Part shown: positions 5,866-8,800 of the stretch, piece after piece | Position numbering within the stretch: the first letter of the stretch is position 1 | Layout: every line of letters starts with the position of its first letter | NCBI RefSeq assembly: GCF_055900595.2 | Contig: NZ_CM148325.1 | DNA: 64,000 bases | Strand: one strand, 5' to 3' | Notes under the pieces: model-generated | Told to the model about the DNA's origin: nothing | The model's database searches: none | What the model saw: only the letters and a program-made list of their open reading frames with translations | Position numbers and translations under genes: made by a program

Positions 5866-8800
5866 ATGAATATGCGGATTATCTTTCTACGCAAGGAGTA
5901 TTTATCTTTACTCCCGTCAATTATTGCATCTCTTTTCTCTGTTAACAGTATCGCGGAGGTTTTGGATTCATGCCAGGGATATGATATCAAAGCGAGTTGT
6001 CAGGCCAGCAGGCAAAGCCTTTCAGGCATTACGCAGGACTGGAGCATCGCCGATGGGCAATGGGTGATTTTTTCGGGTATGGCCAATAATGCCAGCGGTG
6101 GGGCCGTATTTTTGCAGCAAAGTGCTGAATTTACGATATCGCCACAAAATGAAACTGGAATGACTCTGTTTGCCAATAATACTGTCTCAGGAGAATATAA
6201 TAATGGCGGGGCAATATTTGCTAAAGAAAACTCAACGCTGAATCTTACTGATGTTATTTTTTCCGGTAACGTCGCAGGCGGCTATGGTGGCGCAATCTAT
6301 TCTTCTGGTACTAATGATACTGGTGCCGTCGATTTACGTGTCACTAACGCCATGTTTAGCAATAACATCGCTAATGATGGCAAAGGTGGCGCAATTTATA
6401 CCATCAATAATGATGTCTATTTAAGTGATGATGTTTTTAATAATAACCAGGCATATACATCAACAAGTTACAGTGATGGCGATGGCGGTGCAATCGATGT
6501 CACCGATAATAATAGCGATATCACGCATCCGTCAGGTTTCACAATAATAAATAACACCGCATTTACAAATAACACTGCCGAAGGTTATGGCGGGGCAATT
6601 TATACCAATAGCGTGACGGCTCCCTATCTTATTGATATTTCTGTTGATGACAGCTACAGCCAGAACGGCGGTGTGTTAATCGATGAGAACAATAGCGCAG
6701 CAGGCTATGGGGATGGTCCTTCCACTGCGGCGGGCGGCTTTATGTATCTCGGCTTAAGTGAAGTTACCTTTGATATTGCTGACGGAAAAACGCTGGTTAT
6801 CGGCAATACAGAGAATGATGGAGCTGTTGACTCTATTGCTGGTACCGGGTTGATCACCAAAACAGGTTCCGGCGATCTGGTACTTAATGCAGATAACAAT
6901 GACTTTACTGGTGAGATGCAGATTGAAAACGGTGAAGTTACCCTGGGTCGCAGCAACTCCCTGATGAATGTCGGAGATAATCATTGCCAGGACGATCCGC
7001 AAGACTGCTACGGTCTGACGATAGGGAGCATTGATAAGTACCAGAATCAGGCAAAGCTAAATGTTGGCTCCACCCAACAAACCTTTGTGCACGCATTGAC
7101 GGGCTTTCAGAATGGCACTTTAAATATCGATGCTGGTGGCAATGTTACTGTTAATCAAGGCAGTTTTGCTGGCACCATCGAAGGTGCTGGTCAGCTCACC
7201 ATTGCGCAAAACGGCAGCTACGTGCTGGCAGGGGCGCAGTCGATGGCGCTAACTGGCGATATAGTCGTTGATGATGGCGCGGTGCTTACGCTAGAAGGCG
7301 ACGCGGCAGATCTCGCCGCTCTCCAGGACGAGCCGCAGTCGATCGTGTTAAACGGCGGTGTGCTCGATCTCTCTGATTTCTCCACCTGGCAGAGCGGCAC
7401 ATCATACAACGATGGCCTTGAAGTCAGCGGCAGCAGCGGAACGGTTATCGGCAGTCAGGATGTGGTAGATCTTGCAGGCGGAAACGATATGCATATCGGC
7501 GGCGACGGGAAAGATGGCGTCTACGTGGTGGTCGATGCGGGTGATGGGCAGGTCAGCCTGGCAAATGACAATCAATACCTCGGCACAACGCAAATTGCTT
7601 CCGGTACGCTGGTGGTGAGTGACAACTCGCAGCTTGGAGATACCCTCTATAACCGCCAGGTTATCTTTACCGATAATCAACAAGAAAGCGTGATGGAGAT
7701 TACTGCCAATGTCGATACTCGCTCTACAACGGTTGAGCATGGGCGTGATATTGAAATGCGCGCCGACGGTGAAGTGGCAGTTGATGCGGGGGTAGACACG
7801 CAGTGGGGCGCACTGATGGCTGACAGCAGCGGGCAGCATCAGGATGAGGGTAGCACATTGACTAAAACGGGGGCTGGCACCCTGGAGCTGACCGCCAGCG
7901 GTACGACGCAGTCGGCGGTGAGAGTAGAAGAAGGCACGCTGCAAGGCGATGCTGTGAATATCTTTCCTTATGCTTCGTCGCTGTGGGTCGGTGACGGAGC
8001 AACATTCGAGACTGGCGCAGATCAGGATATCCAGTCTATTGATGCTACTTCCAGCGGCACTATCGACATCAGTGATGGCACCGTTTTGCGCCTGACGAGT
8101 CAGGATACTTCCGCCGCACTGGATGCCTCGCTGTTTAACGGCGACGGTACGTTGGTGAATGCCACCGATGGCGTGACGTTGACAGGCGAGCTTAATACTA
8201 ACCTGGAAACTGACAGCCTGACCTATCTTTCCGATGTGACGGTTAATGGTGATCTAACCAATATGTCCGGTACAGTCAGTCTGCAAAATGGTGTCGCTGG
8301 CGATACGCTCACGGTAAACGGTGATTACACCGGCGGTGGTACGTTGTTTCTCGACAGCGAATTAAACGGCGATGACTCGGCAAGCGACCAACTGGTGTTG
8401 AACGGCAATACCTCAGGTAACACGACCGTGGTGGTTAACCCCATTACCGGCATTGGTGAACCGACTTCTACAGGTATTAAAGTGGTTGATTTCACTGCTG
8501 ATCCCACGCAATTTCAAAACAATGCGCAGTTTAGTCTTGCGGGCAGCGGCTACGTCAATATGGGCGCGTATGACTACACGCTGGTGGAAGATAACAACGA
8601 CTGGTATCTGCGATCGCAAGAAGTAACGCCACCATCGCCACCTGATCCAGACCCGGACCCAACTCCCGATCCTGCTCCCACGCCAGATTCTGATCCAACA
8701 CCCGACCCGGCTCCAGCCCCTACGCCTGCCTACCAGCCGGTGTTGAATGCCAAAGTTGGTGGATATTTTAATAACCTGCGGGCGGCAAATCAGGCGTTTA

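What the first reader, a model, noticed from the sequence alone, without database searches (positions are those of the whole stretch)
8626..8730. Pro-Asp-Thr-rich low-complexity linker in the YfaL autotransporter
YfaL contains a run TPPSPPDPDPDPTPDPAPTPDSDPTPDPAPAPTPAYQP encoded by short imperfect DNA repeats (ccngaccca/ccngat units). Such linkers between passenger and translocator are length-polymorphic between strains through slipped-strand events, can alter surface display, and can cause assembly collapse.
Basis: seen in the sequence. Interest (0 to 1): 0.3.

Follow-up and report, generated by a model that had tools for sequence, protein, structure and literature searches.

The report
Proline-rich stalk linker of YfaL adhesin
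This is the proline-rich spacer that joins the exposed part of the known E. coli surface adhesin YfaL to its membrane anchor; its length really does differ between strains (19 to 35 residues), but the variants are stable and inherited, so the feature is real and ordinary.

Summary
Window 8626-8730 (+) encodes TPPSPPDPDPDPTPDPAPTPDSDPTPDPAPAPTPA, residues 921-955 of a 1256-codon ORF. That ORF is YfaL/EhaC, an AIDA-I-type autotransporter flanked by nrdA and by ubiG-gyrA. The 35 residues hold 17 of the protein's 33 prolines.

The segment lies between the last beta-helix rung (DWYLRS) and the helix that plugs the 12-stranded barrel. AIDA-I has about 11 residues at this position.

The length polymorphism is real. 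Linkers of 19, 23, 25, 27, 31, 33 and 35 aa were found. Every difference is in frame and is a multiple of 6 nt; some are whole 18-nt DPDPTP units bounded by an 11-nt direct repeat.

In a systematic sample of 5,419 complete E. coli genomes, 31 aa (K-12) is about 65%, 25 aa about 20%, 33 aa about 8% and 23 aa about 5%. The window's 35-aa allele is the longest and is rare (9 genomes).

It is not a hypermutable locus. Tandem Repeats Finder finds nothing and the longest exact repeat is 8 nt. DNA repetition is no greater than the peptide implies, and length is constant within haplotypes. The alleles are also recombination mosaics.

Effects on surface display were not tested. Complete genomes show no repeat collapse, but many short-read assemblies, mostly Shigella sonnei, break inside this linker for an unresolved reason.

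The parts
5866..9636 (+). yfaL/ehaC ORF (1256 codons plus stop). The likely true start is the ATG at 5872, which matches the K-12 N-terminus MRIIFLRKEY.
   Evidence: ORF list and translation. Pfam: Chlam_PMP, PATR, AC_1, Pertactin and Autotransporter beta-domain. 5,419 of 5,426 complete E. coli genomes match, and the match is annotated yfaL 'AIDA-I family autotransporter adhesin YfaL/EhaC'.
5872..5955 (+). Predicted signal peptide (28 aa, MRIIFLRKEYLSLLPSIIASLFSVNSIA).
   Evidence: Inferred from the 28-aa YfaL signal peptide used as a biopart in PMC13101318 and from the translation. Not tested here.
8251..8613 (+). Autochaperone / pertactin-like C-terminal end of the beta-helical passenger (residues 796-916). 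The last rung ends with DWYLRS.
   Evidence: Pfam AC_1 796-906 and Pertactin 813-916. Aligns to the AIDA-I transport unit 4MEE and to the IcsA autochaperone structures 3ML3 and 5KE1. Beta strands run up to fragment residue 138 in the AlphaFold model.
8541..8556 (.). Interval holding a recombination (mosaic) breakpoint among yfaL alleles, about 80 nt upstream of the linker.
   Evidence: For the triplet window/L003/L016, informative sites switch from 42:4 to 2:42 (Fisher p 1.5e-18). Flank distances are discordant on the two sides of the linker.
8626..8730 (+). The finding: a Pro/Asp/Thr/Ala-rich X-Pro linker, residues 921-955, 35 aa. It is the longest allele seen.
   Evidence: No secondary structure and pLDDT about 46-51 in the model. 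All length differences between strains map here.
8656..8661 (+). Extra Asp-Pro unit (GACCCA, next to GACCCG). It is absent from the 23-, 27-, 31- and 33-aa alleles and present in the 25- and 35-aa alleles.
   Evidence: Unit-level alignment of alleles.
8710..8721 (+). Ala-Pro Ala-Pro (GCTCCA GCCCCT), where K-12 has the single unit GAACCT (Glu-Pro). This is the second 6-nt length difference from K-12.
   Evidence: Unit-level alignment.
8652..8679 (-). G-quadruplex-type motif GGGAGCAGGATCGGGAGTTGGGTCCGGG on the strand complementary to the Pro codons. It is the only such motif (loops <=9) in the 64-kb window.
   Evidence: Regex scan of both strands. Any significance is speculative.
8749..8793 (+). 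Pore-spanning alpha-helix (AKVGGYFNNLRAANQ, residues 962-976).
   Evidence: Helix 184-198 of the 478-aa fragment, pLDDT 85-89. Aligns to the AIDA-I 4MEE segment that precedes the barrel.
8839..9633 (+). 12-stranded beta-barrel translocator domain.
   Evidence: Pfam PF03797 at residues 995-1234. 4MEE match E 3.5e-37. Strands and high pLDDT in the model.

Best explanation
The segment is the inter-domain stalk of the type Va autotransporter adhesin YfaL/EhaC. It is an alternating X-Pro sequence (X = Asp, Thr, Ala, Ser) placed between the last rung of the beta-helical passenger and the alpha-helix that sits in the pore of the C-terminal 12-stranded barrel.

Shown here: the identity of the gene, the exact position of the segment, its lack of predicted structure, its presence at the same position in distant homologues, and its length polymorphism among strains (19-35 aa).

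Inferred: alternating X-Pro sequences cannot form helix or sheet and tend to adopt extended polyproline-II-like conformations. At about 3.1 A per residue this gives roughly 6 nm for 19 aa and 11 nm for 35 aa. The linker would therefore act as a non-folding, protease-resistant, negatively charged spacer. It would thread easily through the barrel first during secretion, and afterwards hold the passenger away from the barrel and the lipopolysaccharide layer.

Because only composition and periodicity matter, the segment tolerates gain and loss of 6-nt (X-Pro) and 18-nt (DPDPTP) units. These changes arise rarely, by misalignment between short direct repeats of 11 nt or less, either in replication or in recombination. 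They are then inherited stably and reshuffled between lineages by homologous recombination. The window carries a rare, longest allele that belongs to a divergent lineage close to Escherichia sp. KS167_9B.
For: Identity: Pfam architecture, RefSeq annotation of 5,419 matching genomes, and flanking ubiG, gyrA and nrdAB.

Position: 4MEE (AIDA-I transport unit) aligns on both sides of the linker. It has about 11 residues where YfaL has about 44. The AlphaFold model gives strands to residue 138, coil with pLDDT about 46-51 across the linker, helix 184-198, then the barrel.

Conservation of the feature: homologues at 29-36% identity (named Budvicia, Rahnella, Citrobacter and Enterobacter, plus unnamed ones) have a Pro-rich spacer of variable length at the same alignment position.

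Polymorphism: 23, 25, 31, 33 and 35 aa, 27 aa in E. coli 042, and 19 aa in protein-database entries. All changes are multiples of 6 nt. The frequencies come from an evenly spaced 60-row sample of the hit ranking over 5,419 genomes.

Unit deletions bounded by GATCCTGATCC: 33 to 27 aa, and a related 24-nt loss from 31 to 23 aa.

Stability: 21/21 sampled genomes that are >=99% identical to K-12 in the flanks keep 31 aa. All 9 nearest relatives of the window keep 35 aa.

Mosaicism.

The K-12 fragment 786-1250, which includes the linker, is sufficient to display foreign proteins (PMC7138890).
Against: No experiment or computation here measures the conformation of the linker or any effect of its length. 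The spacer function rests on general knowledge of X-Pro sequences (TonB, the OmpA hinge, cellulase PT linkers). AIDA-I works with about 11 residues at this position. Some E. coli carry in-frame deletions that remove much or all of the linker together with the end of the autochaperone domain and are still annotated as intact genes (L007; P0013, P0014). A long stalk is therefore not obviously required. The mutational mechanism is inferred from the end products only.
Confidence: 0.75

Rival explanations
1. Neutral, indel-tolerant filler. The segment only has to connect two domains. Its length and sequence drift freely, and length has no functional consequence.
For: The length range is wide, 19-35 aa. 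In-frame deletions remove most of it. AIDA-I has only about 11 residues at this position. Spacer composition varies widely in distant homologues.
Against: Strict X-Pro alternation is kept in every allele despite many substitutions. A Pro-rich spacer persists at the same position in homologues only about 30% identical. Every linker fetched from the complete genomes is in frame. The one sampled genome whose yfaL is annotated as frameshifted (GF3-3) still has an in-frame 25-aa linker.
Confidence: 0.3
2. Exposed epitope or receptor under diversifying selection. This would resemble the proline-rich repeat regions R1 and R2 of Bordetella pertactin, with length and sequence variants favoured because they escape antibodies or phages.
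For: yfaL is repeatedly found among positively selected E. coli genes (PMC9110714). yfaL is far more divergent than its neighbours: 87-96% identity against 97-99.5% for gyrA. The alleles are mosaics. Pertactin alleles differ in the number of Pro-rich repeats (PMC8931430).
Against: The positive-selection signal was not localised to the linker here. Within the linker most substitutions are synonymous or conservative (Asp/Glu/Ala/Thr before Pro). Divergence is spread over the whole passenger and barrel, not concentrated in the linker.
Confidence: 0.15
3. Hypermutable simple-sequence contingency locus. Frequent replication slippage changes the repeat number within a strain and switches or tunes the adhesin.
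For: The indels are whole repeat units, and some are flanked by an 11-nt direct repeat. A few short Logan contigs carry 1-nt frameshifts inside the linker (P0029-P0031).
Against: There is no tandem array by TRF, and the longest exact repeat is 8-11 nt. Synonymous sites between units are scrambled, no more alike than random recoding. All indels seen in complete genomes are in frame. Length is invariant within haplotypes, including K-12 laboratory derivatives that are 100% identical.
Confidence: 0.04
4. Processing or release site. The many Asp-Pro bonds, chemically the most acid-labile peptide bonds, or a protease site in the linker allow the passenger to be shed.
For: There are six Asp-Pro bonds in the window allele and seven in the K-12 allele. 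The location is where other autotransporters are cleaved (general knowledge).
Against: Nothing here or in the papers read indicates that YfaL is cleaved. A YfaL fusion was found mainly in the outer-membrane fraction at the size calculated for the full-length chimera, 80 kDa (PMC7138890).
Confidence: 0.04

Closest known systems
YfaL/EhaC of E. coli K-12 (AIDA-I family type Va autotransporter adhesin)
   Same: Same gene at the same locus (nrdA-yfaL-ubiG-gyrA). Same domain order, and the same linker position and X-Pro chemistry.
   Different: The window allele is about 89% identical in DNA around the linker. Its linker is 35 aa instead of 31: it has one extra Asp-Pro unit and Ala-Pro-Ala-Pro where K-12 has Glu-Pro. 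It also carries Asp-to-Ala and Pro-to-Ser changes that break the DPDPTP repeats.
AIDA-I transport unit (PDB 4MEE)
   Same: Homologous autochaperone end, pore helix and 12-stranded barrel (E 3.5e-37).
   Different: AIDA-I has about 11 residues between the last rung (WYLTSH) and the helix segment. YfaL has about 44, of which 35 are the X-Pro linker.
Proline-rich repeat regions R1 (GGxxP) and R2 (PQP) of Bordetella pertactin
   Same: Pro-rich repeats in an autotransporter passenger. Their copy number differs between alleles and changes slowly, over epidemiological rather than within-infection time (PMC8931430).
   Different: The paper read (PMC8931430) describes R1 and R2 as large variable loops connecting rungs of the beta-helix. 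The YfaL stretch lies after the last rung and before the pore helix. The repeat units differ (X-Pro and DPDPTP against GGxxP and PQP). Immunodominance is known for pertactin and untested here.
X-Pro spacers such as the TonB (Glu-Pro)n(Lys-Pro)n region, the OmpA Ala-Pro hinge and cellulase Pro-Thr linkers (from general knowledge, not tested here)
   Same: Alternating X-Pro sequence joining two folded domains; expected to be extended, non-folding and protease-resistant.
   Different: No homology. YfaL's linker is extracellular and acidic.

Membership tests
Type Va (classical) autotransporter, AIDA-I family, YfaL/EhaC orthologue | C-terminal 12-stranded beta-barrel translocator domain (PF03797) | tested here: met
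   Pfam E 1.7e-33 at residues 995-1234. 4MEE match E 3.5e-37. Barrel strands in the AlphaFold model.
Type Va (classical) autotransporter, AIDA-I family, YfaL/EhaC orthologue | Alpha-helical segment preceding the barrel | tested here: met
   Helix at fragment residues 184-198 (protein 962-976), pLDDT 85-89. Aligns with the 4MEE segment that precedes the barrel.
Type Va (classical) autotransporter, AIDA-I family, YfaL/EhaC orthologue | Beta-helical passenger ending in an autochaperone domain | tested here: met
   Pfam AC_1 (E 2.2e-18), Pertactin, PATR and Chlam_PMP repeats. Matches to IcsA autochaperone structures 3ML3 and 5KE1.
Type Va (classical) autotransporter, AIDA-I family, YfaL/EhaC orthologue | Orthology: same chromosomal locus and near-universal presence in E. 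coli | tested here: met
   5,419 of 5,426 complete genomes match, with a median of one place each, annotated yfaL. ubiG and gyrA lie downstream and nrdAB upstream.
Type Va (classical) autotransporter, AIDA-I family, YfaL/EhaC orthologue | Sec signal peptide, secretion and adhesin activity | not testable with these tools
   The N-terminus matches the 28-aa YfaL signal peptide used in display kits (PMC13101318). Function was not assayed.
Variable-number proline-rich repeat region of an autotransporter (pertactin R1/R2 type) | Pro-rich short repeat units whose number differs between alleles | tested here: met
   One to three DPDPTP units plus single X-Pro units. Linkers of 19-35 aa.
Variable-number proline-rich repeat region of an autotransporter (pertactin R1/R2 type) | Surface-exposed immunodominant epitope under immune selection | not tested
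   Only a gene-level positive-selection report (PMC9110714). No data specific to the linker.
Simple-sequence contingency (phase-variable) locus | Perfect or near-perfect tandem repeat tract | tested here: not met
   TRF finds nothing at score >=30. Copies are 65-70% identical. The longest exact repeat is 8 nt in the window and 11 nt in K-12.
Simple-sequence contingency (phase-variable) locus | High-frequency length change among closely related cells or strains, often frame-shifting | tested here: not met
   21/21 K-12-like and 9/9 window-like genomes keep their length. All alleles in complete genomes are in frame.
Polyproline-II type rigid X-Pro spacer (TonB / OmpA-hinge / PT-linker type) | Alternating X-Pro sequence between two folded domains | tested here: met
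   13 of 14 dipeptides are X-Pro. The segment is flanked by a folded beta-helix and by the helix and barrel.
Polyproline-II type rigid X-Pro spacer (TonB / OmpA-hinge / PT-linker type) | Extended PPII conformation in solution | not testable with these tools
   The model shows coil with low confidence, which is compatible with an extended state but does not demonstrate it.

The most novel reading that the evidence does not exclude
Linker length is an adaptive, tunable stalk height. Under this reading the 19- to 35-aa alleles (about 6-11 nm if extended) are matched to the thickness of the strain's O-antigen or capsule layer so that the passenger is either exposed or masked, and recombination spreads the length that suits each surface. 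A more speculative addition is that the run of acid-labile Asp-Pro bonds lets the passenger be shed at gastric pH.
Probability: 0.1. Interest if true: 0.4.

Novelty: already known. Interest (0 to 1): 0.15.

Why it matters
The value is mostly practical. First, YfaL residues 786-1250, which include this linker, are a popular surface-display anchor. Natural alleles now give a ready-made series of tolerated linker lengths (19-35 aa) and in-frame deletions that could be tried for display. Second, the linker is a place where many short-read assemblies break. yfaL presence/absence or 'truncated' calls from draft genomes, especially Shigella sonnei, should therefore be treated with care. Third, the locus illustrates how a repetitive peptide can be encoded by non-repetitive DNA and stay genetically stable. 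It does not open a new biological question.

Tried and rejected
1. Tandem Repeats Finder on 8400-8900 gave no array, so I dropped the idea of a classical VNTR.

2. I considered an IS element inside the linker as the cause of the S. sonnei contig breaks. I rejected it because scaffold L042 bridges the gap with 250 N, which matches the intact distance, and the contig ends carry only yfaL sequence. The 5' end of those contigs is a different matter: there the read-through contig continues into non-yfaL sequence (P0083).

3. I considered a second genomic copy of the linker as the cause of the breaks. I rejected it for E. coli, where the median is one place per genome with a 751-nt query.

4. I looked for an E. 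coli complete genome carrying the S. sonnei allele in order to read the missing bases. The best match was only 95.5% identical.

5. A pattern scan of GTDB species representatives for DWYLRSQE found only the E. coli representative (33-aa allele) and one chance hit, so I obtained no cross-species series.

6. The antisense ORF 8413-8820 (135 aa) lies wholly inside yfaL, on the Gly-rich complement of the Pro codons, and has no independent support. I treated it as spurious.

7. The GATC cluster at 8612, 8644, 8668 and 8692 is a by-product of GAT-CCN codon pairs and is not a regulatory Dam cluster.

8. The original YfaL display paper (PMC3346495) is not in the library. No paper I read describes the linker polymorphism.
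Full report
**1. The observation**

Window 8626-8730 on the + strand reads ACG CCA CCA TCG CCA CCT GAT CCA GAC CCG GAC CCA ACT CCC GAT CCT GCT CCC ACG CCA GAT TCT GAT CCA ACA CCC GAC CCG GCT CCA GCC CCT ACG CCT GCC. This is TPPSPPDPDPDPTPDPAPTPDSDPTPDPAPAPTPA, residues 921-955 of the ORF 5866..9636.

- Seventeen of the 35 residues are proline, against 16 of the other 1221 residues.
- From Asp927 onward, 13 of 14 dipeptides are X-Pro, with p about 5e-24 under the background Pro frequency.
- The segment is 66.7% G+C, and 50% of the coding strand is C.

The peptide-level observation is therefore exact and far beyond chance.

The DNA-level description as "short imperfect repeats" is weaker.

- Tandem Repeats Finder reports nothing at score >=30.
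- The repeat finder sees only 65-70% identical copies, mostly in an 18-nt register.
- The longest exact direct repeat is 8 nt.
- In 5,000 random synonymous recodings of the same peptide, using codon usage from seven long genes of the window, the simulated DNA is as repetitive as the real one or slightly more so. The longest repeat is 8 observed against a mean of 11.0 simulated. Offset-18 identity is 0.563 against 0.569. The K-12 allele gives 0.640 against 0.694.

The DNA periodicity is thus a passive consequence of the peptide periodicity. The units are not recent duplicates.

**2. What it is**

The ORF has the architecture of a classical (type Va) autotransporter: Chlam_PMP and PATR passenger repeats, autochaperone AC_1 (796-906), Pertactin (813-916) and the Autotransporter beta-domain (995-1234).

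A 751-nt query around the linker hits 5,419 of 5,426 complete E. coli genomes, with a median of one place per genome. Every match is annotated "yfaL: AIDA-I family autotransporter adhesin YfaL/EhaC". ubiG and gyrA follow the gene and nrdAB precede it.

The solved AIDA-I transport unit 4MEE aligns on both sides of the linker. Its ...GAYDYTL...WYLTSH matches ...GAYDYTLVEDNNDWYLRSQ, and its ENGSYATNMTLANSLF matches KVGGYFNNLRAANQAF. AIDA-I has about 11 residues between these points and YfaL has about 44.

An AlphaFold model of the last 478 residues (14-sequence alignment, mean pLDDT 72.8, pTM 0.73) shows:

- beta strands up to fragment residue 138;
- no secondary structure and pLDDT about 46-51 across the linker;
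- a helix at 184-198 (pLDDT 85-89);
- a barrel with pLDDT mostly 80-95.

Homologues only 29-36% identical (those named are from Budvicia, Rahnella, Citrobacter and Enterobacter) also carry a Pro-rich spacer of very different length and sequence at the same alignment position, for example PEPEPEPEPKPEP and a stretch of about 50 aa rich in PDPT. The presence of such a spacer is old. Its sequence is free to change.

**3. Polymorphism**

I fetched 27 yfaL segments from complete genomes, chosen from rankings sampled at even steps. I then cut out the segment between DWYLRSQE and YQPVLNAK. Linker lengths are as follows.

| Length | Where seen |
|---|---|
| 23 aa | fetched genomes |
| 25 aa | fetched genomes |
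| 27 aa | E. coli 042 |
| 31 aa | K-12, O157:H7, Nissle |
| 33 aa | fetched genomes |
| 35 aa | the window |
| 19 aa | protein-database entries (TPPSPPDPDPDPTPDPIPA) |

Both flanks are colinear in all sequences (414 and about 420 nt), so every length difference lies inside the linker.

A unit-level alignment shows that all differences are whole 6-nt X-Pro units. They fall at three sites:

- an extra GACCCA next to GACCCG;
- loss of 18 or 24 nt in the DPDPTP repeats;
- one or two units near the 3' end.

The 33-to-27 and 25-to-19 differences are exact losses of one 18-nt DPDPTP unit. In K-12 the units are bounded by the 11-nt direct repeat GATCCTGATCC.

Frequencies come from an evenly spaced 60-row sample of the ranking of 5,419 genomes.

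| Linker length | Rows of 60 | Share |
|---|---|---|
| 31 aa | 39 | 65% |
| 25 aa | 12 | 20% |
| 33 aa | 5 | 8% |
| 23 aa | 3 | 5% |
| Larger deletion | 1 | the last-ranked record |

A 40-row sample taken with the window as query gives the same picture. The window's 35-aa allele is the longest seen. It occurs in 9 genomes, eight at 99.9% identity and one at 98.4%, and the next-best hits carry 33 aa.

**4. How the variation arises and how fast**

The end products fit misalignment between short direct repeats: they are unit-sized, in frame, and some are repeat-bounded. Misalignment could occur during replication (slippage) or during recombination. Nothing here distinguishes the two.

The rate must be low.

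- Among 1,896 genomes that are >=99% identical to K-12 over 739 nt, all 21 sampled rows keep 31 aa, including laboratory derivatives that are 100% identical.
- All nine relatives of the window keep 35 aa.
- All eleven 042-like rows keep 27 aa.

About half a dozen indel events explain all the alleles I saw across the species.

Recombination also contributes.

- The 5' and 3' flanks have discordant affinities. L003 is 1.9% from the window on the 5' side and 10.0% on the 3' side. L016 is 10.6% and 1.0%.
- In the triplet window/L003/L016, the informative sites switch from 42:4 to 2:42 between 8541 and 8556, with Fisher p 1.5e-18 at the best cut.
- Inside the linker, the window's 5' third is K-12-like (TPPSPP), while its 3' half is identical to L016, including the unusual GATTCT (Asp-Ser).

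yfaL as a whole is a divergence hot spot: 87-96% identity to a K-12-like allele, against 97-99.5% for gyrA. It has been reported among positively selected E. coli genes (PMC9110714).

The repeat units can also mediate larger accidents. Strain VTB97022v has an in-frame 168-nt deletion between two copies of GATCCCACGC, one in the autochaperone domain and one in the linker. P0013 and P0014 are two other deletions of the same type.

**5. How it most likely works**

The position and the lack of predicted structure are shown. The conformation and function are inferred from established knowledge of alternating X-Pro sequences, such as the TonB Glu-Pro/Lys-Pro region, the OmpA Ala-Pro hinge and Pro-Thr linkers. 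These sequences are extended and polyproline-II-like at about 3.1 A per residue, resist proteases and cannot fold.

On that basis the linker would be a spacer of about 6 nm (19 aa) to 11 nm (35 aa). It would pass the barrel easily at the start of secretion and later hold the passenger clear of the barrel and the LPS.

The K-12 fragment 786-1250, which contains the autochaperone end, linker, helix and barrel, suffices to display foreign proteins (PMC7138890; PMC13101318). No paper I could read tested linker length.

The main rival is that length is simply neutral. AIDA-I manages with 11 residues, and deletion alleles exist. I cannot exclude this.

A contingency-locus reading fails its defining tests. 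A pertactin-like epitope under selection is possible but is not localised to the linker by my data. Release at the acid-labile Asp-Pro bonds is pure speculation.

**6. The assembly claim**

Complete genomes show no collapse. The protein database, however, holds more than 45 distinct N-terminal YfaL fragments, nearly all from Shigella sonnei short-read assemblies. Their C-termini form a ladder inside the linker, from ...SQEV-T to ...TPPSPPNPNPTPDPDPTPDP.

There are also C-terminal fragment clusters that begin at APTPAYQP (303 member sequences) or at YQPVLNAK (519 member sequences).

The S. sonnei upstream contigs mostly end at GATCCTG(A), and the downstream contigs start within 2 nt of CGGCCCCTACGCC. 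One scaffold joins them with 250 N. That matches the uninterrupted distance, so no IS element sits there. The contig ends contain only yfaL sequence.

The E. coli fragments come largely from metagenome and Logan contigs. Their break coincides with a C/T polymorphism next to the linker and, at the other end, with a REP element. This is what strain mixtures and true repeats produce.

The S. sonnei isolate gap is unexplained. One lead is that the complement of the Pro codons forms G-quadruplex-type motifs:

- GGGATCAGGATCGGGAGTCGGGTTGGG in S. sonnei;
- GGGAGCAGGATCGGGAGTTGGGTCCGGG at window 8652-8679, the only such motif in the 64 kb;
- none in K-12.

This needs raw reads to test.

**7. Comparison, novelty and verdict**

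This is the known YfaL/EhaC adhesin with its known type of Pro-rich junction. The window carries a rare allele from a lineage 99.94% identical to Escherichia sp. KS167_9B over 13.9 kb.

The nearest analogue for the polymorphism is pertactin R1/R2, whose repeat numbers differ between alleles and change slowly (PMC8931430).

It is unproven on mechanism, untested on display, and half right about assembly trouble: the problem is breaks, not collapse. Interest is low. The useful outputs are a catalogue of naturally tolerated linker lengths for a widely used display anchor, and a warning about draft-assembly artefacts at this locus.

Noticed in passing
window 1693-15637; L053 (AP025754.1): This part of the window is 99.94% identical (7 mismatches and 1 gap in 13.9 kb) to Escherichia sp. 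KS167_9B, an unclassified Escherichia whose locus tags start with 'EsCd1'. Only 9 of 5,419 complete 'E. coli' genomes share this yfaL allele. ubiG is also unusually divergent from a K-12-like strain (94-98%).
   Followed up: partly
window 7630 (codon 589 of yfaL); L053-L055; L001: The window has CAG (Gln) at codon 589. KS167_9B and six other contigs have TAG there, which splits yfaL into 588 (or 490) + 647 aa. In the closest complete genome (Z0117EC0005), yfaL is instead cut by an IS3-family element in the beta-domain. The gene is intact in the window but has been inactivated independently in close relatives.
   Followed up: partly
L027, L028-L033, L042-L050 (Shigella sonnei draft contigs); equivalent to window about 8600-8860: Hundreds of S. 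sonnei short-read assemblies break inside the yfaL linker. One scaffold has 250 N there, which fits the intact distance, so no IS element is involved. The cause is unknown. A separate break at ...FDIADGK upstream continues into non-yfaL sequence in one read-through contig.
   Followed up: partly
window 8652-8679, minus strand: The only G-quadruplex-type motif (four G3+ runs, loops <=9 nt) in the whole 64-kb window lies on the complement of the linker's Pro codons. The S. sonnei, 042 and 25-aa alleles also have one; K-12 does not.
   Followed up: partly
L007 (E. coli VTB97022v); P0013; P0014: These are in-frame deletions that remove the end of the autochaperone domain together with part or all of the linker. 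In VTB97022v the deletion is 168 nt, between two copies of GATCCCACGC; the window equivalent of the upstream copy is 8500-8509. The gene is still annotated as intact.
   Followed up: partly
window 8541-8556: A sharp switch of sequence affinity between yfaL alleles (42:4 against 2:42 informative sites) marks a recombination breakpoint near the boundary between the passenger and the linker. The 5' third of the linker has a third, K-12-like ancestry.
   Followed up: yes
window 8626-8730: Pro codon usage in the linker is CCA 8, CCT 4, CCC 3, CCG 2, while CCG makes up 63% of Pro codons in seven long genes of the window. The K-12 allele, counted by eye from its sequence, shows a similar even spread. 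The reason is unknown.
   Followed up: partly
window 8612, 8644, 8668, 8692: Four GATC (Dam) sites lie within 84 nt, three of them exactly 24 nt apart. This is explained by GAT-CCN (Asp-Pro) codon pairs.
   Followed up: yes
window 33149-33225, 45020-45326, 36887-36980, 62379-62452: Rfam hits elsewhere in the window: four naRNA4/REP-type elements, MicF next to the ompC region, and one tRNA. These are ordinary for this chromosomal region.
   Followed up: no
P0082 (E. coli, 25 member sequences): A frameshifted yfaL variant reads ...DNNDWYLRFARSNAAIAT*. The shift lies just upstream of the linker, and the shifted frame stops inside it.
   Followed up: no
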